Source: Escherichia coli (lineage in GTDB: Bacteria > Pseudomonadota > Gammaproteobacteria > Enterobacterales > Enterobacteriaceae). From it: a stretch of DNA of 64,000 nucleotides. The DNA lies in NCBI RefSeq assembly GCF_044324785.1, contig NZ_CP172127.1; one strand, 5' to 3'. Of this stretch, positions 3,649 to 62,377 are shown piece by piece (the stretch's first letter is position 1; each line of letters starts with the position of its first letter). Under the pieces are notes generated by a model. That model had not been told where the DNA came from, made no database searches, and worked only from the letters and a program-made list of their open reading frames with translations. Both the position numbers and the translations under genes were made by a program.

Positions 3649-5037
3649 ATGTTTATCCTTGAAACGCTGAATTTTGTTGTTGATATACTTAAAGTGCCCG
3701 CGATACTGGTCGGCTTGATTGCCTTAATTGGTCTGGTTGCCCAGAAAAAATCTTTTTCAGATGTTGTTAAAGGTACAATTAAAACTATTCTCGGCTTTAT
3801 TGTACTGGGCGGTGGTGCCACTGTTTTGGTTGGTTCGTTAAATCCTCTTGGGAGTATGTTTGAACATGCCTTTAATATTCAGGGCATCATTCCGAATAAT
3901 GAGGCTATTGTTTCTATTGCGCTGGAAAAATATGGCGCATCGACGGCCCTTATTATGGCATTTGGTATGGTGGCGAATATTATTGTTGCCCGCTTTACCC
4001 GCCTTAAATATATCTTCCTGACCGGACACCACACATTTTACATGGCCTGCATGATTGGTGTGATTCTGACAGTGGCTGGTTTTGAAGGTATATCACTGGT
4101 CTTTACCGGTTCTCTTATTCTGGGACTTGTGATGGCATTTTTCCCGGCATTAGCACAACGCTATATGAAGCGTATTACGGGGAATGATGACATTGCTTTT
4201 GGTCACTTTGGCACTCTGGGATATGTACTTTCTGGCTGGATTGGCAGCGTGTGCGGTAAAGGTTCCCGCTCCACCGAAGAGATGAATTTGCCCAAAAATC
4301 TGAGCTTCCTGCGCGACAGTTCCATCTCTATTTCTCTTACGATGATGGTGATTTATCTGATCATGGCGATCAGTGCTGGTCGTGAGTTCGTTGAAAGCCA
4401 GTTCAGTGGTGGTCAAAACTACCTTGTCTACGCCATCATAATGGCCATCACCTTCGCTGCTGGTGTATTTATTATTCTGCAAGGCGTGCGTTTAATCCTT
4501 GCTGAAATAGTTCCGGCATTTACCGGGTTTTCAGAAAAGCTGGTGCCGAATGCCCGTCCGGCCCTCGATTGCCCGGTTGTGTATCCGTATGCGCCAAACG
4601 CAGTGTTAGTTGGTTTCTTGTTTAGCTTTTTTGGCGGTCTGGTAGGGCTATTTTTGTTGGGACAGATGAAACTGGTGTTGATTCTTCCGGGTGTCGTTCC
4701 TCACTTTTTTACCGGGGCGGCTGCTGGCGTATTTGGTAACGCTACGGGGGGACGTCGTGGCGCAATGATTGGTGCTTTTGCGAATGGCTTATTGATTACC
4801 TTCCTGCCAGTACTGTTATTGCCGGTTCTTGGGGCGATAGGCTTTGCTAATACGACCTTTTCCGATGCAGATTTTGGTGCTGTCGGCATCGTCCTCGGAA
4901 ACCTGGCACGTTATCTCTCACCTTTTGCCATCACCGGACTTGTAGTAGCGCTATTTGTGCTGCTGGTTGCCTGGAACATTTTCGCCAGTAACAAAATCGC
5001 TGCCAAAGCGCAGAAGAAGAGTGGAGCCAAATCATGA
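3649..5037 (+). CDS. PTS EIIC permease (ascorbate family, UlaA/SgaT-like)
   Basis: About 460-aa polytopic membrane protein with Gly-rich hydrophobic segments; RBS GAGGTGG upstream; stop overlaps next start (ATGA). Confidence 0.85.
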   Translation: MFILETLNFVVDILKVPAILVGLIALIGLVAQKKSFSDVVKGTIKTILGFIVLGGGATVLVGSLNPLGSMFEHAFNIQGIIPNNEAIVSIALEKYGASTALIMAFGMVANIIVARFTRLKYIFLTGHHTFYMACMIGVILTVAGFEGISLVFTGSLILGLVMAFFPALAQRYMKRITGNDDIAFGHFGTLGYVLSGWIGSVCGKGSRSTEEMNLPKNLSFLRDSSISISLTMMVIYLIMAISAGREFVESQFSGGQNYLVYAIIMAITFAAGVFIILQGVRLILAEIVPAFTGFSEKLVPNARPALDCPVVYPYAPNAVLVGFLFSFFGGLVGLFLLGQMKLVLILPGVVPHFFTGAAAGVFGNATGGRRGAMIGAFANGLLITFLPVLLLPVLGAIGFANTTFSDADFGAVGIVLGNLARYLSPFAITGLVVALFVLLVAWNIFASNKIAAKAQKKSGAKS

Positions 5038-5864
5038 ATGTTAAAGAATTGACTCAATTTGCACGGGATATACGTATCCAGACGCTTAAATCATTAACTC
5101 ATCTCGGCTTCGGTCATTATGGTGGCAGCATGTCGGTTGTGGAAACGCTGGCAGTGCTTTATGGCGCTGTAATGAAAATTGATCCTGCTGCTCCCGACTG
5201 GCCTGAGCGTGACTATTTTATCCTGTCCAAAGGACATGCCGGACCTGCTCTCTACAGTACTCTGGCGCTGAAAGGCTACTTTCCACTGGAAGAATTAAGC
5301 ACCTTAAATCAGAACGGAACCCGCTTACCAAGTCATCCGGATCGGCTAAAAACGTGTGGTGTTGATAGCACCACAGGATCGCTGGGGCAGGGGATATCCA
5401 TTGCCGGAGGGATGGCGCTGTCGCATAAACTGGCGGGGCGCAAGAATCGGGTTTTTTGTATTGTCGGCGATGGCGAACTTAATGAAGGCCAATGTTGGGA
5501 AGCTTTCCAGTTTATCGCGCATCATCGTTTGAATAACCTCACTGTGTTTGTGGACTGGAACAAACAGCAGCTTGATGGTCAACTGGATGAAATTATTAAT
5601 CCATTTGATTTGGAAGGAAAATTCCGGGCTTTCGGTTTTGATGTCGTGACAGTGAAGGGCGATGATATTGAGGGCTTGTTGAATGTAGTTAAACCTGTCC
5701 TGCCAGCTGAGGCCAGACCGAGAGTGGTCATTCTCGATAGCATTAAAGGGCAGGGGGTGCCGTGTCTCGAGCAACTCAGTAATTCTCATCACTTACGCCT
5801 CACAGAAGAGATGAAGGGGACGCTAAACGAAACAATTCGCCAACTGGAGGCTATGCATGATTAA
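5034..5864 (+). CDS. Transketolase, N-terminal (TPP-binding) subunit
   Basis: 276 aa; motifs GHYGGSMSVVE and GSLGQGISIAGGMA are the split-transketolase N-terminal subunit signature; translationally coupled to the PTS IIC gene. Confidence 0.85.
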   Translation: MNVKELTQFARDIRIQTLKSLTHLGFGHYGGSMSVVETLAVLYGAVMKIDPAAPDWPERDYFILSKGHAGPALYSTLALKGYFPLEELSTLNQNGTRLPSHPDRLKTCGVDSTTGSLGQGISIAGGMALSHKLAGRKNRVFCIVGDGELNEGQCWEAFQFIAHHRLNNLTVFVDWNKQQLDGQLDEIINPFDLEGKFRAFGFDVVTVKGDDIEGLLNVVKPVLPAEARPRVVILDSIKGQGVPCLEQLSNSHHLRLTEEMKGTLNETIRQLEAMHD

Positions 5865-37735: not shown

Positions 37736-39124
37736 ATGTCTGAACGCTATATTCCACGCTCCGTTGATGCAGAGCAGGCCGTGCTGGGCGGCCTGATGCT
37801 CGATAATGAACGCTGGGATGAGGTGGTACTGATGCTCCGGGGGGAGGATTTTTCTCTGGCCGCACACCGGGTGATATTCCGCACCATGTCAGAGCTGGCA
37901 ACCAGCGGTCAGCCGTTCGACCTCATCACGCTGAGTGAGCATATTGAGAAAACAAACAATATTGAGGCACTGGGTGGTTTCGCTTATCTGGCTGAACTCA
38001 GCAAAAATACGCCTTCTGCAGCCAATATTATCGCTTATGCCCGTATTGTTGCTGAAAAGAGCATGCTGCGTCAGTTGCAGGAGACGGGGAATGCGCTGAT
38101 TACGGATGTGGCCGCACCGGATGCGACACCACGCACTGTTCTTGAATCCGCTGAACGTCGGCTCTTTTCACTTTCACAGACTGGCATGTTGCATGAGCGA
38201 TGTGAAGTCAGTCTCACCTCGGCTATGGAGCTGGCGCTGCGTCAACTGGAAGAGGGACTGAACGCCGGCGGGATGACGGGCACGCCCACGGGATTTGATG
38301 AACTGGATAAGATGACCTGTGGTCTGCAGCCCGGCGACCTCATTCTTCTGGCTGCACGCCCGTCTATGGGGAAAACAGCGCTGGGCCTTACCTTCTGTCT
38401 TAATGCCCTGTGTAACCGGACCGATGAAACGGTATTTCTTTTCAGTATCGAAATGTCCCGGGAGCAGCTGATTCTGCGTGTCCTGTCAATGCTCTCCAGG
38501 GTGGAGCTGACACGTCTTCGCAGCAGCATGATGAATGATGAAGAGTGGGCGAGAGTCACGGCAACCATGGGACGCTTCATGAATGAAGCGTCATTCATCG
38601 GAGATGGAAACCGCCTGATAATTGATGACACCTCCTTCCAGACGCCGTCATCGCTGCGTGCCAGCGCCCGTCGTTATGTCCGTCTGTATGGCAGACCTTC
38701 CCTGATAATGGTTGATTACCTCCAGCTGATTCGTTCTCCGGACCAGGAGAACCGAACGCAGGAAATTGCGGAAATATCCCGCGCCCTTAAGGCGTTAGGT
38801 AAAGAGCTGGGATGCCCGGTACTGGCACTGTCTCAGCTTAACCGTCAGGTGGAGCAGCGGGCGGATAAGCGCCCCAATAACGGTGACCTGCGTGATTCCG
38901 GGGCGCTGGAGCAGGATGCTGACCTCATTATGTTTATTTACCGTGATGAGGTTTATAACTCTGGCACGCTGGATAAGGGCGTTGCTGAAATCATTGTGAG
39001 CAAACAGCGGCAGGGGCCAACCGGAACGATACGGGTGAACTTCGACGGCCGCTACACCCTGTTTTCACCGTTTGAACGTGGATGGAATTTTGACCGTGCC
39101 GGAGGAAATGCGTATGTCAATTAA
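37736..39124 (+). CDS. DnaB-like replicative helicase (ICE-encoded)
   Basis: N-terminal DnaB domain (EQAVLGGLMLDNERWDEV), Walker A ARPSMGKTALGL, C-terminal RecA-like motifs; RBS GGAGG. Confidence 0.9.
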   Translation: MSERYIPRSVDAEQAVLGGLMLDNERWDEVVLMLRGEDFSLAAHRVIFRTMSELATSGQPFDLITLSEHIEKTNNIEALGGFAYLAELSKNTPSAANIIAYARIVAEKSMLRQLQETGNALITDVAAPDATPRTVLESAERRLFSLSQTGMLHERCEVSLTSAMELALRQLEEGLNAGGMTGTPTGFDELDKMTCGLQPGDLILLAARPSMGKTALGLTFCLNALCNRTDETVFLFSIEMSREQLILRVLSMLSRVELTRLRSSMMNDEEWARVTATMGRFMNEASFIGDGNRLIIDDTSFQTPSSLRASARRYVRLYGRPSLIMVDYLQLIRSPDQENRTQEIAEISRALKALGKELGCPVLALSQLNRQVEQRADKRPNNGDLRDSGALEQDADLIMFIYRDEVYNSGTLDKGVAEIIVSKQRQGPTGTIRVNFDGRYTLFSPFERGWNFDRAGGNAYVN

Positions 39125-40766
39125 ACGAAATCATTCCGTTGATCTGGGAGCTGCCATCATGCAACCGGGCCGTCAGGCCAGCACGACGGGTAACGTGGTG
39201 GCGCTGGGGGAAACACCGATGATTCTGACGCTGGATCAACTGCGCCCCAACCCGGATAACCCGAGGACCACGCGTAATCCCCGGTACGACGATATTAAAA
39301 GTTCAATTTTCTCCCGTGGACTGGATACGGTGCCCAAAGTCACCCGGATACCTGAGAGTGAGCCGGATATCTATATTTTCAGCGATGGTGGTAACACGCG
39401 ATATCAGATCCTGAAAGAGCTGTGGGAGGAGACCGGCGATCAGCGTTTCTATCGTATTCATGTGCTTTTCAAGCCATGGCCGGGACGGCTTCAGTGCGTC
39501 ATTGGTCACCTGGCTGAGAATGAAGTCAGGGGCGAACTGACGTTTATTGAAAAGGCCCGGGGTATCCATAACGCCCGGATGATTTATGAGGAGTCGATGC
39601 AGCGAACCGTGACGATCAGGGAACTGGCGTCACTGCTGACGGATGAAGGACTTCCGGTAAGCCACTCATCTGTCAGCAGGATGGAGCATACTCTGAAATA
39701 TCTGTATCCGTGGATCCCCGATCTTCTGGAATCAGGATTAGGAAGACCGCAGATCAATTCACTGTTGTCTCTCCGGCAGGATGCGGAACGCATCTGGGGA
39801 CAGTTTGCGGTGGCAACAGAGAACGGGGCGGATTTTGACCGCGTGTTTGGTGAATGCTGCAGCAAATTCAATTCACCGGAGCTCTGGTCACTGGAGATGT
39901 TCCGGGATGAGCTGATTGGTGATCTGCTGAAAGCGTTACCACATCCGGTGCTGGATTATGACCGCTGGTTGCTTGAACTGGATCCGCGGGAGCGTAACCG
40001 ACGTCACCATTTTGGCGAACCTGAGCCGGTGCTCATTCCCGCAGACAGTGATGCGATGCCAGAGCCTGCGACTGACGGTGTGTCGGCAGTGACGGCGGAG
40101 AAGAACAGCGGAAGGGAGCAGTCTGTGATTTCCGCACCGGCTGACCATGACACCGTCATGAATACGGAGCAATCCCCGGCTGGAAAGGCGGAGAGTTCAG
40201 TTATCGAACAACGCGAAGAACGCCGTAGAAAGGAAGTCCAGCCGGATATGTATGGTGGTGAAGAAACATACAGCGGCGATTACGAAGAGGATGGCGATAC
40301 CCGTGATGCTGCGGATCTGCCGGTAACGTCACCGGAAGAGGGGGCTCAGCAGAGCAGCGGTGAAATATTCAGTGAGCCGGTATTCAGTGTTGGTGAACTG
40401 GATGATATCGAATATCTGCAGAATGAGGCATTTCACCTGGCATGGGAGCTGGCGTCACACACAGGCTGTGTCGATGAGCTGGCTATGGACAGGGAAAGCG
40501 AACTGTCTGCGGGATTCGGCGCGGCAGAGGCGAATTGTTCTCCGGTCATGGCATTTCTTGTCAGACTGACCGGTGAGGAGGTTCTGCGGGTCAATCCGGT
40601 TTCCCTTGATGCACTGCTGATAGGCGGCAGTACTGAAGAAGACCTGCCGTTGCTTGATGATGAACATGCAGGAAAGTTGCTTCGCCTGCTGGGTGTGTTG
40701 CGTCGTCTGCGGGGGCTGCAGCGTATGGTGGAAGACGAGAGTGAGGAAGGGCGCGATGAATGCTGA
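39114..40766 (+). CDS. ParB-like nuclease-domain protein (ICE ParB family)
   Basis: N-terminal ParB/Srx-like domain followed by a long acidic low-complexity C-terminal region. Confidence 0.75.
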   Translation: MSIKRNHSVDLGAAIMQPGRQASTTGNVVALGETPMILTLDQLRPNPDNPRTTRNPRYDDIKSSIFSRGLDTVPKVTRIPESEPDIYIFSDGGNTRYQILKELWEETGDQRFYRIHVLFKPWPGRLQCVIGHLAENEVRGELTFIEKARGIHNARMIYEESMQRTVTIRELASLLTDEGLPVSHSSVSRMEHTLKYLYPWIPDLLESGLGRPQINSLLSLRQDAERIWGQFAVATENGADFDRVFGECCSKFNSPELWSLEMFRDELIGDLLKALPHPVLDYDRWLLELDPRERNRRHHFGEPEPVLIPADSDAMPEPATDGVSAVTAEKNSGREQSVISAPADHDTVMNTEQSPAGKAESSVIEQREERRRKEVQPDMYGGEETYSGDYEEDGDTRDAADLPVTSPEEGAQQSSGEIFSEPVFSVGELDDIEYLQNEAFHLAWELASHTGCVDELAMDRESELSAGFGAAEANCSPVMAFLVRLTGEEVLRVNPVSLDALLIGGSTEEDLPLLDDEHAGKLLRLLGVLRRLRGLQRMVEDESEEGRDEC

Positions 40767-41487
40767 TGCCGCACGTCAGGATCAACTGATTAAACGGATA
40801 AGAAAACTGCTGGCGCTGAGCCGGAATAACAGTAACCCCCATGAGGCAGGCCAGGCACTTTCCCGTGCTCAGGCGCTGATGCGCAAGCACGGTATCACTG
40901 AACTGGATACTGATATTTCGGTGATAAAGACCTCGTCATCAAAGGGGGCCCCGTCAGAAGCGGAAAAAGTTCCGGTATGGATGGGGCGCCTTATGCATGT
41001 TGTTGCAGAGGCATTCGGATGCCATACATACCTGGACTGGCGTATCACAACCGGAAGGTACTGGCGGCGGGTTGTCATATTTTATGGCTTTGGGGAGCGC
41101 CCGGTTGTGGCGGCGTATGCCTTTGATGTTCTCTGCCGGCAGATGCAAAAGGCAACAAAGGCGTATCTTTCAACCCAGAGCCGGACATTAAAATTGTCAA
41201 CCCGAAGGGCAAGAGCAGCCATGTTTCGTGACGGCTGGGTTTATGGGGTGCGTGATGTGGTGGATGCATTCCCGCTCACGGAAGATGAGACGCGTGTAAT
41301 GAAGACGTGGCTGAAGAGACAGCAATTTGAGGGAATGGCTGCCTTCCGGAATGTTAAGGACTGTAATGGTGGTGATCGTGCACGCTGGCAGGGATACAAC
41401 GAGGGGAAAAAGGCAACGCTGAATCACGGTGTTGGTTCCCGGGATCTGAGACCGGAAAGCCTGATATCGGGCGGAGGTGAGGTATGA
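40756..41487 (+). CDS. Conserved ICE hypothetical protein (DUF2786-like N-terminus)
   Basis: N-terminal LIKRIRKLLALSRNNSNPHEAGQALSRAQALMRKHGI resembles the DUF2786 motif; overlaps parB-like stop. Confidence 0.5.
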   Translation: MNADAARQDQLIKRIRKLLALSRNNSNPHEAGQALSRAQALMRKHGITELDTDISVIKTSSSKGAPSEAEKVPVWMGRLMHVVAEAFGCHTYLDWRITTGRYWRRVVIFYGFGERPVVAAYAFDVLCRQMQKATKAYLSTQSRTLKLSTRRARAAMFRDGWVYGVRDVVDAFPLTEDETRVMKTWLKRQQFEGMAAFRNVKDCNGGDRARWQGYNEGKKATLNHGVGSRDLRPESLISGGGEV

Positions 41488-42062
41488 GTAACAACTTATC
41501 ACAGGCCACCAACGGGCTGTTGATGCAACTGGTGATGGATCTCAAGAGTGGCTATCTGCGGCGATGTGAAGCGCTGGGGCTTTCCCGGGAAGAAATGCAG
41601 ATGCTGCAGGGGCTGAGCATTGAAGAAATTCACTATCTGTCAAATTCAGAAGTGTCGGTGCTGCGGCTGGATATTAACCACAACAATCTTGTGCGCATGT
41701 TGCAGCAGGCGCGGACTGAACAGAAACGTCTGCAGCGAATCGATCGCGCTCTGGCGCTGGGTGGGTCTATCGAACTCATGGCGTTTTATTTTGGTCTTTC
41801 CAGCGTGGATGTGGCTGCGCGGCGTCGTATCTCCGGTATTGATGTTCGTCCCGGAAGGGGGATCACCCTGAGTGACGATGAGAATTCTGAACTCTGGCGG
41901 TTGTGGCAGAAAGCCGGGATCAATGATGTGGAGAGTGTGGATGGGCTGGATGTCATGATGCTTTGTGCTGAACAGATGAACATTCCACTGACGGCCATCT
42001 GGCATGCCGTCAGAGGGTGGCATACAACCGGAAATCCGGATCAGGTAAGGAGTGCGTCATGA
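41484..42062 (+). CDS. Hypothetical ICE protein
   Basis: 192-aa ORF translationally coupled to flanking genes. Confidence 0.5.
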   Translation: MSNNLSQATNGLLMQLVMDLKSGYLRRCEALGLSREEMQMLQGLSIEEIHYLSNSEVSVLRLDINHNNLVRMLQQARTEQKRLQRIDRALALGGSIELMAFYFGLSSVDVAARRRISGIDVRPGRGITLSDDENSELWRLWQKAGINDVESVDGLDVMMLCAEQMNIPLTAIWHAVRGWHTTGNPDQVRSAS

Positions 42063-58023: not shown

Positions 58024-60140
58024 TGAGCAACCGCTATGTCATTGAGGCATTGCTGAGACCGGCTGTGGAGTTCAATACGGCAGTGGTGGCAGCAACAGCA
58101 GCATGTATCTGTGTGACAGCCCCCTGGGCGGTGGCGCTGGCACCCACCGTCAGTTACGCCACTGCCGGTGGATTTGCCCTGCTGGCCGTGGTGCGTTTCC
58201 GGCAGGGGATGAACATCATCCGGTATCGCCGTAATCTGCGCCGGCTGCCCCGCTATGTGATGAGTACACGGCAGATCCCGCTCAGCCGTCAGCGGCTGTT
58301 TCTGGGGCGGGGATTTCGCTGGACCCAGAAGCATACCCAGCGTCTCCAGGATACGCTGCGACCGGAGGTGGCACACTATCTGCAGCCGGGCGGACTTTAC
58401 CGGCTGGCGCGCTGGCTGGAAATGAAAACGGAACACCGTCTGCCCGCGCTGGGGAAACTGCTCCGGCATGAGTCGTCGCTGAATCCTGTGCGTCCTCTGC
58501 CGCCGGTGGGGGGAAATCCCGCCCTGCATGGTATTGAGCCGGATGAACAGGATGTGACGCTGGCTCTGGGGGAGCGTGTGGGGCATACCATTGTCTACGG
58601 CACCACCCGTGTCGGTAAAACCCGCCTGGCAGAACTGCTGGTCACTCAGGATATCCGCAGGGGAGAGGTGACCATTGTGTTTGATCCCAAAGGTGATGCT
58701 GATCTGCTGCTGCGTGTCTGGGCGGAAGCACACCGTGCCGGGCGGGGTGATGAACTGTATATTTTCCATCTGGGATGGCCGGAAATTTCGGCCCGATATA
58801 ATGCGGTGGGACGCTTCGGGCGTGTTTCGGAAGTGGCTTCCCGTGTGGCCGGTCAGTTGTCCGGTGAAGGGAACTCGGCGGCTTTCCGCGAGTTCGCCTG
58901 GCGGTTCGTCAACATCATTTCCCGCGCCCTGGTGGCACTCGGTGAGCGCCCGGACTACCTGCTGATTGTGCGGTATGTGAACAACATAGCCGATCTCTAT
59001 ATCCGCTATGCCGGAAAGGTGATCCGCGAGCGCATGCCGGAACTGGAGCAGGCGATTGCGAATAACCAGAATGTGATCAGCGAGGAGGATGTTCCCCGCA
59101 CCATGCAGAACCAGCCGGATGCGGTACGTATCTGGTCCATCGAGATGGCCCTGAGCAGTGAGGAGGGTAAAAAAATTTACGATCCGATCCTGGACGGGCT
59201 TCGCAGTGCGGTCCGCTATGACCGTACCTATTTTGACAAAATCGTGGCGTCCCTGCTGCCGCTGCTGGAAAAACTCACCACGGGCAGGATCGCAGAGCTG
59301 CTGGCACCGGACTATCTGGACATGAACGATGCGCGACCGATTTTTGACTGGGAACAGGTGATCCGTAAAAAGGCGGTGGTCTATATCGGCCTGGATGCAC
59401 TCAGCGACAGTGTGGTAGCCAGTGCTGTGGGGAATTCGATGTTTGCGGACCTGGTGAGCGTGGCGGGGCATATCTACAAGCACGGCATGCATGCCGGTCT
59501 GCCCGGTAAGGGGGAAGGCAAAAATGTGGTGAACCTGCACTGCGATGAGTTTAACGAACTGATGGGGGATGAGTTTATTCCGCTCATTAACAAGGGGGGC
59601 GGTGCCGGTATGCAGGTCACCGCGTACACCCAGACATCGTCAGATATTGAAGCGCGTATCGGTAATGCAGCCAAAACGGCGCAGGTTCAGGGAAACTTCA
59701 ACAACATGATCATGCTGCGTGTCAGGGAGAACAGGACGGCAGAGCTGCTGACCACACAACTGCCTCAGGTGGAGATCTACACCAAGACGCTGGTCTCCGG
59801 TCACCAGGATACGGCGGACGTGTCTGCCGGTCAGGATTTCACGTCCAGCACCCAGGATCGTGTCGGCACGGTGAAGGTACCTCTGCTGGAGCCGTCAGAT
59901 ATTGTCACCCTGCCCAAGGGACAGGCGTTTGCCCTGCTGGAAGGGGGGCAGTTGTGGAAAATCCGGATGCCGCTGCCGGCAGGGGATACGGATGACGTGC
60001 TGATGCCGGAGAACATTGCCCGGGTGGCAGAGGCGATGAGACAGAACTATCACACCGGTGAAGGATGGTGGAATGAGCCGCCGTCAGCGCAGGCCGCCGG
60101 AACAGATGAAGGAGGCGGATATGGCGGAAGCGCGTCGTGA
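58023..60140 (+). CDS. traD: Conjugative coupling protein TraD (VirD4-like, PAPI-1/PFGI-1 class)
   Basis: About 705 aa; N-terminal TM segments, Walker A GTTRVGKT, large cytoplasmic ATPase domain; ATG overlaps upstream stop (TAATG). Confidence 0.85.
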   Translation: MSNRYVIEALLRPAVEFNTAVVAATAACICVTAPWAVALAPTVSYATAGGFALLAVVRFRQGMNIIRYRRNLRRLPRYVMSTRQIPLSRQRLFLGRGFRWTQKHTQRLQDTLRPEVAHYLQPGGLYRLARWLEMKTEHRLPALGKLLRHESSLNPVRPLPPVGGNPALHGIEPDEQDVTLALGERVGHTIVYGTTRVGKTRLAELLVTQDIRRGEVTIVFDPKGDADLLLRVWAEAHRAGRGDELYIFHLGWPEISARYNAVGRFGRVSEVASRVAGQLSGEGNSAAFREFAWRFVNIISRALVALGERPDYLLIVRYVNNIADLYIRYAGKVIRERMPELEQAIANNQNVISEEDVPRTMQNQPDAVRIWSIEMALSSEEGKKIYDPILDGLRSAVRYDRTYFDKIVASLLPLLEKLTTGRIAELLAPDYLDMNDARPIFDWEQVIRKKAVVYIGLDALSDSVVASAVGNSMFADLVSVAGHIYKHGMHAGLPGKGEGKNVVNLHCDEFNELMGDEFIPLINKGGGAGMQVTAYTQTSSDIEARIGNAAKTAQVQGNFNNMIMLRVRENRTAELLTTQLPQVEIYTKTLVSGHQDTADVSAGQDFTSSTQDRVGTVKVPLLEPSDIVTLPKGQAFALLEGGQLWKIRMPLPAGDTDDVLMPENIARVAEAMRQNYHTGEGWWNEPPSAQAAGTDEGGGYGGSAS

Positions 60141-60882
60141 TGCGGAACGCAGCCCGCAGTCCCGGGCGCCCCGTCAGCATGGTCTGCTGTACAATCTGGT
60201 GTGGGGCTGGCCGTGGGCACTGGTGGGGCTGATTTTATCCTCCCTGCTGCTGAGTCTGTTGATTGAGTATGCCGGTATGACGTTTTTCTGGAGTGAGGAG
60301 GGGGCGGCGCACAGCCGCGCTGTCATGAACACGGAGCTGGGCTGGCTGTCAACGGAGTTCACCCGCAGTCTGCTGCTTTCCGCGCCGGCAGAAACGGTGC
60401 CGGCGTGGATTTCCGCCGCGTATCAGTGGCTGTTTGTGGACAGTGGCATGCAGACATGGCTGCATGCACAGCAGGCGGGGACGGCGGCAGGCAGAAGCGT
60501 GTCTGAATTCAGCAGTGAGCTGAGTCAGTGGCTGGCTTATCATCTTCATGACTACCTGCTGGCGACGGTGTATGTGACGGTGGTGACGATGGTCAGGGTG
60601 GTTATTCTCGTCCTGTCCGTTCCGTTGTTTGTGATGGTGGTTCTGGTGGCCGTTGTGGAGGGGCTGGGGCGCCGTGATTTGCGGCGTTACGGCGCGGCTT
60701 ATGAGTCCAGCTTTGTCTATCATCATGCAAAAAAATCAGTCAGACCGGCGATTTATGTCCCCTGCATTATTTACCTTTCCTGGCCCGGCGCGGTATATCC
60801 GAACCTGCTGATATGGCCGGCGGCCATGCTGCTGGGACTGGCGGTTACCGTGACTGTGGCATCGTTCAAAAAATATCTCTGA
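60121..60882 (+). CDS. Conserved ICE integral membrane protein
   Basis: About 253 aa; RBS GGAGG; several TM helices (WPWALVGLILSSLLLSLLIEYAG..., VVILVLSVPLFVMVVLVAVV). Confidence 0.6.
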   Translation: MAEARRDAERSPQSRAPRQHGLLYNLVWGWPWALVGLILSSLLLSLLIEYAGMTFFWSEEGAAHSRAVMNTELGWLSTEFTRSLLLSAPAETVPAWISAAYQWLFVDSGMQTWLHAQQAGTAAGRSVSEFSSELSQWLAYHLHDYLLATVYVTVVTMVRVVILVLSVPLFVMVVLVAVVEGLGRRDLRRYGAAYESSFVYHHAKKSVRPAIYVPCIIYLSWPGAVYPNLLIWPAAMLLGLAVTVTVASFKKYL

Positions 60883-60965
60883 TTCATGCGCCGGACACCC
60901 CGGTGCAAAACGTGTTTTGTGGCGGGGTGTCGGCAGACAAGCCACGTACTGACTGTCACAGCGCG

Positions 60966-61157
60966 TCAGCGTAAGAGCACCGGCAGCAAGGGAATGACAA
61001 CAATGGTGATGACGATGATGAGCAGGTTGATGCCCCTGATGACGTCATATAACCAGACAGGGCACTGTGGCTCTTCCCTGACGATATATAACACAACAAA
61101 AAACCAGGTAAGACTGAACAGGGCCCGGTACGGAAGGGCGGTGAGGAGAAATTCCAT
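60966..61157 (-). CDS. Possible small two-TM membrane protein, antisense to the T4SS operon
   Basis: 63-aa ORF with two hydrophobic helices in the gap between operon genes; no clear RBS. Confidence 0.2.
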   Translation of the reverse strand: MEFLLTALPYRALFSLTWFFVVLYIVREEPQCPVWLYDVIRGINLLIIVITIVVIPLLPVLLR

Positions 61158-61400
61158 GCTGATGTTTCCTCTTTACGGGGGGTCATTAGCGGGAAACTGT
61201 AGTGATGACCTGTTTCAGTAAACAGAAAAAATCATTAAAGATGGAATAAAATTGCGCCCCGGCGCGGGGATATGTTCCGGCATTCAGCCATGTCCGTTTT
61301 CCCTTAAAAATTTTCAGTTTTACAAATAGAGTTTATCGCTGACCGGCACACCTGCCTTCTTCATGCTGTACGCACCCACAGATTCTTAACGGAGGTGCGT

Positions 61401-61742
61401 ATGTTTTCTCTTCCCGCATTTCCCCGGCGTGCCGCTGCCCTGGCAGGTACTACCGGGATGATGCTTCTTGCCATTGTGGCTGTGCCGGTTCAGGCCGCCG
61501 AAAAGGATGAGCTGGCAACGGCCATGCGCCAGCTTGACCAGGTACGGGCGGCGCTTGACCGTGCCAGAACGGCATCCCTTCAGGCCACGCCTCATGACGG
61601 GCGTTATTTCTTCGACTACCCGCGCGCACAGGCTGACATTCAGACCATGCAGGCGGGTATTGACCGTTATCTCACGCCGTCCCGTGCCCAGCCCCGAAAC
61701 GGCAGTGCCGTGACCGGTGAATACCGGCGGGAGCGTCCCTGA
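61401..61742 (+). CDS. ICE protein, RAQPRD family
   Basis: Signal peptide then motif SRAQPRN near the C-terminus matching the RAQPRD signature; RBS GGAGG. Confidence 0.7.
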   Translation: MFSLPAFPRRAAALAGTTGMMLLAIVAVPVQAAEKDELATAMRQLDQVRAALDRARTASLQATPHDGRYFFDYPRAQADIQTMQAGIDRYLTPSRAQPRNGSAVTGEYRRERP

Positions 61743-61984
61743 TGGCGCTGACGTCGGCACAGATCACGGCCTTTAAGGTGGCATCCGGTGATGTGGATCT
61801 GAATGTGGTGCATCTGACATCGGTGGGAATGCTGGTTGCCGTTCTCTTTCTCTGGGCCGCCTGGGGACTGTCGGATGCATGGTCCGGGTGGCGTAACGGT
61901 GACGTCAGGGAATCTGCGTTTATCTGGTTTACCGTCCGTACCGCACTGCTGCTTGTCAGCAGTATCTGGATGTTTGCGGGCTGA
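61742..61984 (+). CDS. Small ICE membrane protein
   Basis: 80 aa, two hydrophobic helices; start overlaps upstream stop (TGATG). Confidence 0.55.
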   Translation: MALTSAQITAFKVASGDVDLNVVHLTSVGMLVAVLFLWAAWGLSDAWSGWRNGDVRESAFIWFTVRTALLLVSSIWMFAG

Positions 61985-62011
61985 TTTTCCGTTTTCTTTA
62001 AGGAGACATAT

Positions 62012-62377
62012 ATGTTTAAAAACGCTTTTACTTTCCGTCACCTGCGTCTGGCGGGAATGGGGCTGATTGCTTTTCTGCTGGGCAGTCTGACCCCGGCACT
62101 GGCCGATTTGCCCAAAATTGAGCCGCCATCATCCGGTGGGGGTGGTGGTTTTTTTAATCAACTCAAAGGCTATATCCAGGATGGCATTGTGCTGTTTGGT
62201 CTGGTAGTTGCAGCGGCGGCCTTTGTGAAGGTGGCGGAGGCTGCCGTTACCACTTTTTCTGAGGTGCGTGACGGCAAGACGGGCTGGGGACAGTTCGGGG
62301 CCATTATCGTGGTCGGGGTGGTGCTGCTGGTTGCGGTTATCTGGCTGCTCGGCAAATCCGCGAACATCATCCTGTAA
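62012..62377 (+). CDS. Conjugative pilin-like membrane protein (VirB2-like)
   Basis: 121 aa; signal peptide, Gly-rich linker, two hydrophobic helices; RBS AAGGAG. Confidence 0.55.
   Translation: MFKNAFTFRHLRLAGMGLIAFLLGSLTPALADLPKIEPPSSGGGGGFFNQLKGYIQDGIVLFGLVVAAAAFVKVAEAAVTTFSEVRDGKTGWGQFGAIIVVGVVLLVAVIWLLGKSANIIL

What the first reader, a model, noticed from the sequence alone, without database searches (positions are those of the whole stretch)
60883..61400. Non-coding gap in the T4SS operon with a possible antisense small membrane ORF
Otherwise tightly coupled T4SS genes are interrupted by about 500 bp before the RAQPRD gene. The gap holds a minus-strand 63-aa two-helix ORF (60966-61157) and probably an internal promoter for the downstream sub-operon.
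Basis: inference. Interest (0 to 1): 0.25.

Follow-up and report, generated by a model that had tools for sequence, protein, structure and literature searches.

The report
Operon boundary inside an ICE conjugation cluster
The 518-bp gap is the boundary between two transcription units of an E. coli integrative conjugative element: it holds a conserved RNA-type hairpin, a small antisense membrane-protein gene and a conserved promoter for the pilus/secretion genes, an arrangement already described experimentally in the related Pseudomonas element ICEclc.

Summary
A 518-bp gap (60883-61400) separates the TIGR03747/DUF4400 gene from the RAQPRD gene. It contains a 63-aa minus-strand ORF (60966-61157) that NCBI's PGAP pipeline already annotates as a hypothetical protein.

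The same junction is never tightly coupled in 25 Enterobacterales ICEs (gaps of 195-1649 bp) and carries variable, mostly antisense cargo.

I see four functional parts:
- A 20-bp hairpin plus conserved tail after the DUF4400 stop. It has 9 covarying pairs, wobble pairs only on the + strand, and one copy per ICE.
- The 63-aa ORF. It belongs to a small family of two-helix membrane proteins found only in this slot and orientation. It is weakly constrained and often broken.
- A promoter module, AAATTTTCAG-N11-GARTTWAT followed by CTGACC-17 bp-CATGCT. The bipartite motif recurs only upstream of two other conjugation operons of the near-identical ICE.
- A possible stem in the 5' untranslated region (5' UTR) that overlaps the ribosome-binding site.

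This matches the ICEclc junction orf68241 / antisense orf67800 / BisDC-dependent promoter P67231, and Pseudomonas "GI-Hotspot 8". It is ordinary in kind, with some new detail for the enterobacterial lineage. Interest is about 0.3.

The parts
60890..60934 (+). Conserved 20-bp hairpin (GCCG-G-ACACCCCGGTGCAAAAC...GTTTTGTGGCGGGGTGT-CGGC) starting 8 nt after the DUF4400 stop codon
   Evidence: RNAalifold on 14 Enterobacterales loci gives 20 pairs, 9 of them with compensatory double changes, about 29 G-U cells and no A-C cells, which implies folding of the + strand. MFE is -34.3 kcal/mol, z = -2.7. Covariance model R1 scores 72 bits here and finds no other copy in the window or in the 50 kb that follow in the near-identical ICE. 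No Rfam family matches.
60935..60969 (+). Conserved single-stranded tail AGACAAGCC and second block GCGCGTCAG; left boundary of the variable cargo slot
   Evidence: AGCAG[AG]CAAGCC follows the hairpin in 19 loci, always on the + strand. GCGCGTCAG(T) recurs 10-25 nt further on in the E. coli, Serratia, Morganella, Xenorhabdus and Pantoea loci. No T-run follows, so this is not a canonical intrinsic terminator.
60966..61157 (-). 63-aa small membrane protein gene (two hydrophobic helices, loop motif EEPxxPxW), convergent with DUF4400 and divergent from RAQPRD
   Evidence: ORF and SD. PGAP CDS WP_000394957.1. Family members: KY174 version, P0015, P0011-P0014 and P0017, plus a paralogue-like 62-aa ORF; W18, E29, P33, W35, I43, I48 and P56 are invariant in the 4-sequence alignment A6. 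P0011 lies in the same slot and orientation. Weak constraint: dN/dS 0.62, codon-position differences 14/13/17. Broken or deleted in G1/2, S19-651, NCTC9112 and NC101. No hit in Pfam, NCBIfam, PHROGs or PADLOC.
61158..61250 (-). Conserved upstream region of the small gene (SD at 61166-61173; palindrome CTGTTTCAGTAAACAG at 61210-61225); presumed promoter and 5' UTR of the small gene
   Evidence: 81-82% identical to the diverged E. coli lineages, against 72-76% for the ORF body and 49-51% for the next segment. CTGT-N8-ACAG match. No sigma-70 consensus promoter was found by the scan.
61251..61299 (.). Variable spacer (lineage-specific; GC hairpin CCCCGGCGCGGGG at 61256-61268); the place where relatives carry insertions
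   Evidence: 49-51% identity with 29-119 gap columns against the three lineages that keep the ORF (67% and no gap columns against NC101, which lacks it). Relatives hold 9-bp tandem repeats, a 188-aa ORF and other insertions here.
61308..61336 (+). Bipartite upstream motif AAATTTTCAG-N11-GAGTTTAT, a candidate binding site for the ICE's transfer activator
   Evidence: One match in the window, 0.01 expected. Exactly two more matches in the following 50 kb of the near-identical ICE (L042 5727-5755 on +, 92 nt before the TIGR03757 gene; L042 41171-41199 on -, upstream of the type IV pilus operon), 0 expected. Also kept upstream of TIGR03757 in the diverged NC101 lineage. Conserved across genera upstream of RAQPRD.
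61339..61367 (+). Core promoter candidate: -35-like CTGACC (61339-44), 17-bp variable spacer, -10-like CATGCT (61362-67)
   Evidence: CTG and CAnnCT are invariant in 19 loci from about 12 genera, with constant spacing while the spacer sequence varies freely. The same geometry is seen at the TIGR03757 promoter copies. It falls below the scan's consensus threshold, as expected for an activator-dependent promoter.
61369..61401 (+). Possible 5' UTR stem TACGCACC / GGTGCGTA overlapping the SD GGAGG (61391-95) and the first base of the start codon
   Evidence: 74% of cells are paired, against 28-58% when the partner is slid. Two pairs covary (A-U/C-G, G-C/A-U). 5-14 of 500 shuffles reach the observed values. 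Support is moderate only.

Best explanation
The gap is the junction between two transcription units of the conjugation (MPF_G / GI-type T4SS) gene cluster of an SPI-7/PAPI-1/ICEclc-family ICE of E. coli.

Reading left to right:
1. The long upstream unit (...traD-DUF4400) ends at a conserved, strand-specific 20-bp hairpin with a conserved tail. This most likely acts in the mRNA as a 3'-end, processing or stability structure.
2. A small accessory gene lies on the opposite strand and encodes a 63-aa two-helix inner-membrane protein. It has its own upstream region and belongs to the variable cargo that this slot collects. Its function is unknown. My best guess is a maintenance- or exclusion-type accessory protein expressed independently of transfer.
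3. A weak sigma-70-type promoter (CTGACC-17-CATGCT) is preceded by the bipartite site AAATTTTCAG-N11-GARTTWAT. It drives the RAQPRD-TIGR03758-pilin (TIGR03745)-VirB-like operon. The same site precedes the TIGR03757/TraU/TraG operon and the type IV pilus operon, so the three units form one regulon. The likely activator is the ICE's ParB-like (TIGR03764) and DUF2857 proteins, the counterparts of BisD and BisC of ICEclc.
4. The 5' UTR may fold over the ribosome-binding site.

Shown here: the sequence features, their conservation, the covariation and the motif distribution. Inferred: transcription start, termination, activator identity and protein function.
For: Context:
- The window's T4SS part is 99.96% identical to an annotated E. 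coli ICE.
- The gap is universal and of variable length.
- The cargo is diverse and mostly antisense: Hok/Gef, ParE+PaaA2, a ParA-like ATPase, DUF4225 and DUF5710.

Hairpin: 9 covarying pairs, wobble pairs on the + strand only, single copy.

Termination at this point is a recurrent need: Chimaeribacter and Pantoea carry a canonical hairpin plus T-run right after the DUF4400 stop.

Promoter:
- Invariant CTG-N20-CAnnCT.
- A weight matrix built only from RAQPRD-upstream orthologues finds two further sites, both upstream of and co-oriented with conjugation operons.
- The exact bipartite pattern occurs 3 times in 114 kb and nowhere else.
- It is conserved at the paralogous promoter in NC101.

Activator genes are present and intact in the window: TIGR03764 ParB at 39072-40766 (2.5e-113) and DUF2857 at 41484-42062 (8.7e-66).

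Precedent in ICEclc:
- orf68241 is TIGR03747 and orf67231 is RAQPRD (PMC10018362 Table 1).
- 68241-81655 and 66625-67231 are separate transcripts, and ORF67800 is transcribed from the opposite strand (PMC2892462 Table 1).
- BisC is DUF2857 and BisD is ParB-like (PMC7423338).

Small gene: family members in the same slot and orientation.
Against: - There are no transcript data for this element.
- The consensus scan finds no sigma-70 promoter or terminator in the gap.
- The -10-like hexamer starts with C, and the predicted start site would fall inside the 5' arm of the proposed UTR stem.
- The hairpin lacks a U-tract. In Pantoea and Chimaeribacter it lies about 90-120 nt downstream of a canonical terminator, which argues that it is not simply a terminator.
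- The ICEclc 27-bp MEME motif has no recognisable counterpart here, so the shared regulation is an analogy, not a shown homology of sites.
- The small ORF shows little purifying selection between lineages (dN/dS 0.62, against 0.2 for its neighbours). It is frameshifted, interrupted or deleted in several lineages.
Confidence: 0.7

Rival explanations
1. The conserved hairpin and tail act as single-stranded DNA rather than in RNA. They could be an origin-of-transfer-type relaxase hairpin with a nick or termination site in the conserved tail, or a single-strand initiation site for complementary-strand synthesis after transfer or rolling-circle replication. This rival concerns only the left part of the gap and is compatible with the promoter reading.
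For: - There is one copy per ICE, always in one orientation.
- The stem sequence varies freely but pairing is kept, and a conserved unpaired tail lies 3' of the stem. This is the usual architecture of relaxase or single-strand-origin hairpins (own knowledge).
- The hairpin is retained about 90-120 nt behind a canonical terminator in Pantoea and Chimaeribacter, where transcription from upstream should be low.
- ICEclc has two oriTs whose positions I could not retrieve.
Against: - It is not next to the relaxase gene; traI lies about 44 kb away in the near-identical ICE.
- The many G-T wobble pairs fit RNA better than DNA.
- In most loci it directly abuts the stop codon of the last + strand gene, as a 3'-end RNA element would.
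- It is absent, at the sequence level, from the three Pseudomonas plasmids tested.
Confidence: 0.2
2. The 63-aa ORF is not a functional gene. It would be a decaying remnant or a chance ORF, and its region matters only as spacer or as non-coding DNA/RNA.
For: - dN/dS is 0.62 and substitutions are spread evenly over codon positions (14/13/17), against 0.20-0.22 for the flanking genes.
- By my rough estimate (not computed with a tool), an ORF of this size staying open over about 44 substitutions has a chance of the order of 0.1.
- It is frameshifted in G1/2, interrupted by 72 bp in S19-651, both in NCTC9112, and deleted in NC101.
- Several database entries are frame-switched fragments.
- There is no homologue outside Escherichia-type ICEs by tblastn in 34 loci.
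Against: - A conserved SD and start codon.
- No indels over 61 codons at 24% nucleotide divergence.
- KY174 against S19-651 gives dN/dS 0.21.
- A 41%-identical 73-aa homologue keeps the two helices and the EEPxxPxW loop in the same slot and orientation, next to a paralogue-like 62-aa ORF.
- P0015 is intact on 190 contigs.
Confidence: 0.2
3. The small protein is a membrane toxin of a type I toxin-antitoxin (addiction) module, possibly SOS-controlled, like hok or tisB.
For: - It is a small, very hydrophobic protein on a mobile element.
- The same slot holds a Hok/Gef gene in K. oxytoca and ParE/PaaA2 in S. oryzae, both antisense to the T4SS genes.
- A CTGT-N8-ACAG (LexA-box-like) palindrome lies 52 nt upstream of its ATG. 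The window has 3 such matches against 0.94 expected, and two of them are in the gap.
- Frequent inactivation is typical of toxin genes (own knowledge).
Against: - No Hok or other toxin family hit.
- It has two helices and 63 aa, whereas type I toxins usually have one helix and fewer than 55 aa (own knowledge).
- No antisense RNA promoter was identified.
- The LexA-like box is not conserved in the sister lineages, which read GTGT....
Confidence: 0.1
4. There is no internal promoter. The downstream genes are read through from the traD-DUF4400 transcript, and the conserved block upstream of RAQPRD serves another purpose, for example translational control only.
For: No consensus promoter was found by the scan. 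A candidate UTR stem over the SD exists. The hairpin has no U-tract, so read-through is possible.
Against: - Fixed 17-bp spacing between invariant hexamer cores across genera.
- The same module precedes two other operons.
- Canonical terminators follow DUF4400 in some lineages.
- Kilobase-sized antisense cargo lies in the slot of many relatives.
- There is direct evidence for a promoter at the homologous ICEclc position.
Confidence: 0.08

Closest known systems
ICEclc junction orf68241 (TIGR03747/DUF4400) - orf67800 - P67231/orf67231 (RAQPRD) in Pseudomonas knackmussii B13
   Same: - Same flanking gene families in the same order (PMC10018362 Table 1).
- Separate transcripts on either side, and an ORF on the opposite strand between them that is not induced with transfer competence and is not needed for transfer (PMC2892462, PMC10018362).
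- The promoter in front of the RAQPRD gene belongs to a regulon whose promoters share a motif and depend on BisDC (PMC9286271).
- The E. coli ICE encodes the BisD-like (TIGR03764) and BisC-like (DUF2857) proteins.
   Different: - The antisense gene is unrelated: 134 aa with no predicted membrane helices in ICEclc, 63 aa with two helices here.
- The shared motif differs in sequence, and I could not align it to the ICEclc 27-mer.
- The hairpin element was not found in the Pseudomonas relatives tested.
- Nothing has been measured in E. coli.
[quoted passage not shown]
   Same: It is the same slot in the conjugation cluster, with variable cargo among related elements (PMC12629846; PMC10732049). 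The Enterobacterales loci show the same variability and include toxin-antitoxin genes.
   Different: In this window the slot is almost empty: one 63-aa gene and no recognisable defence system (PADLOC gave no hit). The boundary elements defined here (hairpin and tail on the left, promoter module on the right) are not mentioned in the passages of those papers that I read.
Activator-dependent transfer promoters of other conjugative elements (SetCD of SXT/R391, AcaCD of IncC, FlhDC class II promoters)
   Same: It works like them. A weak core promoter is preceded by a conserved activator box that is repeated in front of several transfer operons. BisC resembles FlhC (PMC7423338). The rest of this comparison is from my own knowledge.
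   Different: The box sequence is different, the activator pair is ParB-like plus DUF2857, and no binding or activation has been tested.

Membership tests
ICEclc-type transfer-competence promoter (P67231 counterpart) | Lies directly upstream of the RAQPRD-family gene that opens the RAQPRD-TIGR03758-TIGR03745 (pilin) operon, downstream of the traD-TIGR03747 unit | tested here: met
   Gene order and families. ICEclc Table 1.
ICEclc-type transfer-competence promoter (P67231 counterpart) | The element encodes the activator pair BisD (ParB-like) and BisC (DUF2857) | tested here: met
   TIGR03764 ParB family at 39072-40766, 2.5e-113. DUF2857 at 41484-42062, 8.7e-66. Domain definitions: PMC7423338.
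ICEclc-type transfer-competence promoter (P67231 counterpart) | A common sequence motif shared with the other promoters of the transfer regulon of the same element | tested here: met
   AAATTTTCAG-N11-GARTTWAT occurs at three conjugation operons and nowhere else in 114 kb. It is conserved in NC101.
ICEclc-type transfer-competence promoter (P67231 counterpart) | Carries the ICEclc 27-bp MEME motif itself (for example GTCACTGCGGGTTCCTATTGTTTGCA) | tested here: not met
   By visual comparison with S3 Fig there is no convincing alignment. Only a TTTGCA-like hexamer appears in some E. coli lineages, at a different distance.
ICEclc-type transfer-competence promoter (P67231 counterpart) | Transcription start, activation by BisDC, expression only in a subpopulation | not testable with these tools
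   Needs 5'-end mapping and reporter assays.
Cargo hotspot between traD/DUF4400 and RAQPRD (GI-Hotspot 8) | Conserved flanking genes with variable content between related elements | tested here: met
   Gaps of 195-1649 bp with unrelated ORFs in 25 loci. Definition: PMC12629846.
Cargo hotspot between traD/DUF4400 and RAQPRD (GI-Hotspot 8) | [quoted passage not shown] | tested here: not met
   The ORF63 family has no PADLOC, Pfam or PHROGs hit. Only TA-type genes were seen in relatives.
Intrinsic (Rho-independent) terminator | GC-rich hairpin immediately followed by a U-tract | tested here: not met
   The hairpin is present, but it is followed by AGACAAGCCACG. The scan finds no terminator in the gap.
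Type I toxin (Hok/Gef and similar) | Match to a toxin family, one transmembrane helix, and an overlapping antisense RNA | tested here: not met
   No family hit. There are two hydrophobic stretches. An antisense RNA could not be tested.
Origin of transfer (oriT) | Inverted repeat next to a nick site recognised by the cognate relaxase; supports mobilisation in cis | not testable with these tools
   A hairpin with a conserved 3' tail exists, but function needs a mobilisation assay. It is not adjacent to traI.
Known RNA families (Rfam 15) | Covariance-model match | tested here: not met
   No match with E <= 1 in 60000-62200.

The most novel reading that the evidence does not exclude
The single-copy, strand-specific hairpin with its conserved tail (60890-60969) is not an mRNA end. 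It would be a DNA-processing site of the ICE that works in single-stranded form: an oriT-type relaxase site, or a single-strand initiation site used after transfer or rolling-circle replication. It sits at the edge of the cargo hotspot inside the T4SS cluster. This would locate a so-far unmapped cis-acting transfer or replication site for the enterobacterial SPI-7/ICEEc2-type elements.
Probability: 0.18. Interest if true: 0.55.

Novelty: new member of a known kind. Interest (0 to 1): 0.3.

Why it matters
The gap shows where the conjugation genes of the E. coli/Salmonella SPI-7-type ICEs are divided into separately controlled units. It gives a concrete, testable cis-element (AAATTTTCAG-N11-GARTTWAT plus CTGACC-17-CATGCT) for the transfer regulon of these elements, which carry virulence and resistance genes in ExPEC/APEC strains.

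It also defines the two conserved boundaries of a cargo slot that is known as a defence hotspot in Pseudomonas. It adds a small family of two-helix membrane proteins and a strongly covarying hairpin, both of unknown role. None of this changes the current picture of ICE biology. It extends the ICEclc model to Enterobacterales.

Tried and rejected
- Rfam search of 60000-62200 at E <= 1: nothing.
- Pfam, NCBIfam, PHROGs and PADLOC on the 63-aa protein: nothing.
- Consensus promoter/terminator scan of the gap: nothing usable.
- BLASTN of the gap against the window for repeated motifs: only the hairpin's self-complementarity. The regulon motif appeared only with a weight matrix built from orthologues.
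- First protein search with the single ORF: only near-identical or frame-switched fragments. The distant homologue came from the profile search of representatives.
- tblastn of the ORF in 34 Enterobacterales loci: no homologue.
- LexA-box idea: the pattern is present but not conserved in sister lineages, so it is kept only as a lead.
- Alignment of the ICEclc MEME motif to the E. coli promoter: no convincing match.
- Search for the hairpin model elsewhere in the ICE and in three Pseudomonas plasmids (pUM505, KBS0802, P. veronii): none.
- Attempts to find the positions of the ICEclc oriTs, or to read the ICEEc2 paper: the papers are not held.
- I first assumed the window was identical to NZ_CP070071.1 throughout. 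It is not: left of about 54700 it is 95% identical and shifted, so coordinates from that record were re-derived for the window.

Full report
**Observation**

- The TIGR03747/DUF4400 gene (Pfam PF14348, 1.8e-68) stops at 60880-60882.
- The RAQPRD gene (PF09686, 4.5e-25) starts at 61401.
- Between them lie 518 bp.
- The neighbouring conjugation genes overlap or abut.
- The minus-strand ORF 60966-61157 encodes 63 aa with two hydrophobic stretches.
- It has a Shine-Dalgarno AAGAGGAA about 10 nt before its ATG.
- In E. coli genomes that carry a 100% identical copy of this stretch, PGAP already annotates it as hypothetical protein WP_000394957.1.

**Context**

- The window carries an SPI-7/PAPI-1/ICEclc-family integrative conjugative element.
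- Its genes include parA, an SPI-7-type dnaB, a TIGR03764 ParB-family gene, a DUF2857 gene, traD and the TIGR037xx conjugation genes.
- In the near-identical copy of strain FDAARGOS_1287 the element ends at tRNA-Phe.
- It looks like the pheV/pheU ICEs of the ICEEc2 type (PMC11537424). I could not read the ICEEc2 paper itself.
- The window equals that record only from about 54700 onwards (99.96%). Further left it is 95% identical and shifted.

**The gap is a constant feature with variable content**

- In five diverged E. coli ICE lineages the junction measures 338-1133 bp.
- In 20 further Enterobacterales loci where both flanking genes were found it measures 195-1649 bp, and it is never closed.
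- Its content is unrelated from lineage to lineage and mostly lies on the strand opposite to the T4SS genes.
- Examples are a Hok/Gef toxin (K. oxytoca), ParE plus PaaA2 (S. oryzae), a ParA-like ATPase, DUF4225 and DUF5710 proteins, and other small membrane ORFs.
- It also corresponds to the place where CBASS/TA cargo replaces orf67800 in P. aeruginosa ICEclc-like elements (PMC10732049).

**Left boundary: a hairpin element**

- Eight nucleotides after the DUF4400 stop begins a 20-bp hairpin (60890-60934). The conserved AGACAAGCC follows it, and a second block, GCGCGTCAG, lies 10-25 nt further on.
- An alignment of 14 loci from Escherichia, Serratia, Pantoea, Enterobacter, Morganella, Xenorhabdus, Erwinia and Pectobacterium gives 20 consensus pairs.
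- Nine of these pairs show compensatory double changes. About 29 cells are G-U and none is A-C, so the + strand (the sense strand of the T4SS genes) is the one that folds.
- A covariance model scores 72 bits here. It finds one copy per ICE, always on the + strand, and none elsewhere in the window or in the next 50 kb of the near-identical ICE. It finds none in three Pseudomonas plasmids of the family.
- The element matches no Rfam family and has no U-tract.
- In most loci it abuts the stop codon of the last + strand gene, which fits an mRNA 3'-end, processing or stability element.
- In Chimaeribacter and Pantoea a canonical terminator follows the stop, and the hairpin lies about 90-120 nt behind it.
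- A role as single-stranded DNA (oriT-like or a single-strand initiation site) therefore cannot be excluded. I rate it at about 0.2.

**The small antisense gene**

Evidence against a gene:
- Between the window and the KY174 lineage (76% nucleotide identity), substitutions are spread evenly over codon positions (14/13/17). dN/dS is 0.62, against 0.20-0.22 for the two flanking genes.
- The ORF is frameshifted in G1/2, interrupted by a 72-bp insertion in S19-651, both in NCTC9112, and deleted in NC101.
- Several database entries are frame-switched fragments.

Evidence for a gene:
- The SD and start codon are conserved.
- There is no indel over 61 codons.
- KY174 against S19-651 gives dN/dS 0.21.
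- The profile search of 1.8 billion representatives found P0011 (73 aa; 41% identity over 39 aa; profile E = 2e-5).
- P0011 lies in the same slot, antisense to the T4SS genes, in an NC101-like ICE. It is preceded by a paralogue-like 62-aa two-helix ORF.
- A further profile search added intact variants: P0015 (63 aa, on 190 contigs), P0012-14 and P0017, and a truncated copy of the 62-aa type from S. Typhi.
- W18, E29, P33, W35, I43, I48 and P56 are invariant in the 4-sequence alignment A6.

I conclude, at about 0.75-0.8, that this is a real but dispensable accessory gene for a two-helix inner-membrane protein of a family confined to this slot. Its function is unknown. There are no hits in Pfam, NCBIfam, PHROGs or PADLOC.

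The 93 bp upstream of its ATG are better conserved (81-82%) than the ORF body (72-76%). They hold a CTGT-N8-ACAG palindrome that is not kept in sister lineages.

**Right boundary: the promoter module**

- The last ~100 bp before RAQPRD are conserved across genera.
- In 19 loci the trinucleotide CTG (61339-41) and the hexamer CAnnCT (61362-67) are invariant, and the 17 bp between the hexamers CTGACC and CATGCT vary freely. This is the signature of a -35/-10 pair, here a weak one (cTGACc / cATgcT) that the consensus scan does not report.
- Immediately upstream lie GAGTTTAT and AAATTTTCAG.
- A weight matrix built only from the RAQPRD-upstream orthologues picked out two further sites in the ICE. 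One is 92 nt before the TIGR03757 gene (L042 5727-5755). The other is upstream of the type IV pilus operon (L042 41171-41199, minus strand). Both are co-oriented with the operon they precede.
- The exact pattern AAATTTTCAG-N11-GARTTWAT occurs three times in 114 kb and nowhere else, with 0-0.01 matches expected in shuffles.
- The TIGR03757 copy repeats the whole architecture (CTGCTA-17-CACGCT, then ACGGAGG). It is retained in the diverged NC101 lineage.

I read this as one regulon of at least three conjugation promoters.

**5' UTR**

TACGCACC (61369-76) can pair with GGTGCGTA (61394-61401), covering part of the SD and the first base of the start codon. Across 19 loci, 74% of cells pair, against 28-58% for slid controls, and two pairs covary. 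This is suggestive, not proven. The start site predicted from the -10-like hexamer would fall inside the 5' arm.

**Comparison with what is known**

In ICEclc:
- orf68241 is TIGR03747/DUF4400 and orf67231 is the RAQPRD gene. orf67800 lies between them, has no database match and is not needed for transfer (PMC10018362 Table 1).
- Northern and RT-PCR analysis separate a 68241-81655 transcript from a 66625-67231 transcript. ORF67800 is placed on the opposite strand and is not induced in stationary phase (PMC2892462 Table 1).
[quoted passage not shown] It shares a motif with seven other promoters (PMC9286271). It is used as the standard transfer-competence promoter (PMC10018362).
- BisC is a DUF2857 protein and BisD is ParB-like (PMC7423338). 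Both counterparts are intact in the window.

The E. coli gap is therefore the counterpart of a junction that has been characterised experimentally. The motif sequence, the antisense gene and the hairpin differ.

**Verdict**

In kind this is known: an operon boundary with an internal, activator-dependent promoter and antisense cargo in an ICE hotspot.

New at the level of detail are:
- the enterobacterial regulon motif;
- the covarying, strand-specific hairpin;
- the small two-helix protein family.

Interest is about 0.3. The most novel reading left open is that the hairpin is a single-stranded-DNA processing site of the ICE (probability about 0.18).

Noticed in passing
L030 3380-3535 (-), Klebsiella oxytoca; L028 3781-4382 (-), Serratia oryzae: The same DUF4400/RAQPRD slot holds a Hok/Gef type I toxin gene (Pfam 1.7e-20) in K. 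oxytoca. In S. oryzae it holds a ParE toxin plus a PaaA2 antitoxin. Both are antisense to the T4SS genes.
   Followed up: partly
window 61210-61225 and 61366-61381: There are two CTGT-N8-ACAG (LexA-box-like) matches inside the gap; the window has 3 against 0.94 expected. The first lies 52 nt upstream of the small gene's ATG but reads GTGT... in sister lineages. The second has a GC-rich centre.
   Followed up: partly
window 39072-40766 and 41484-42062: The BisD-like (TIGR03764 ParB family) and BisC-like (DUF2857) genes are intact in the window. The ParB-family gene is annotated as frameshifted in the otherwise closely related record NZ_CP070071.1. The window and that record are only 95% identical and shifted left of about 54700.
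   Followed up: partly
L043 3040-5620 (NC101-like ICE lineage): A 316-aa secreted, adhesin-like gene is inserted after the hairpin. It is followed by a remnant 3' end of a second DUF4400 gene with a truncated hairpin and an intact tail. This suggests cargo exchange by recombination between ICE copies at this boundary.
   Followed up: partly
L004 about 2045-2105; L003 and L005 inside the ORF homologue: KY174 carries a 9-bp tandem repeat (GCCCGTATT x7) in the variable spacer. S19-651 and NCTC9112 carry a 72-bp insertion with an internal direct repeat that interrupts the small ORF in frame but introduces a stop codon.
   Followed up: no
L008 3284-3312 and L009 3287-3309: A canonical intrinsic terminator directly follows the DUF4400 stop in Pantoea anthophila and Chimaeribacter coloradensis, and the conserved hairpin element lies about 90-120 nt further downstream. 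L013 has a second, weak hairpin copy at 4979-5043.
   Followed up: partly
window 61256-61268 (read on the minus strand): A window-specific GC hairpin CCCCGCGCCGGGG is followed, on the minus strand, by CGCAATTTTATT. It resembles a terminator and lies between the RAQPRD promoter module and the small gene's upstream region. It is absent from the other lineages.
   Followed up: no
L010 and L011 3482-3668 (+), Serratia: A different 61-aa two-helix ORF lies in the same slot, on the T4SS strand, and is unrelated in sequence to the E. coli family. Small membrane ORFs recur in this hotspot.
   Followed up: no
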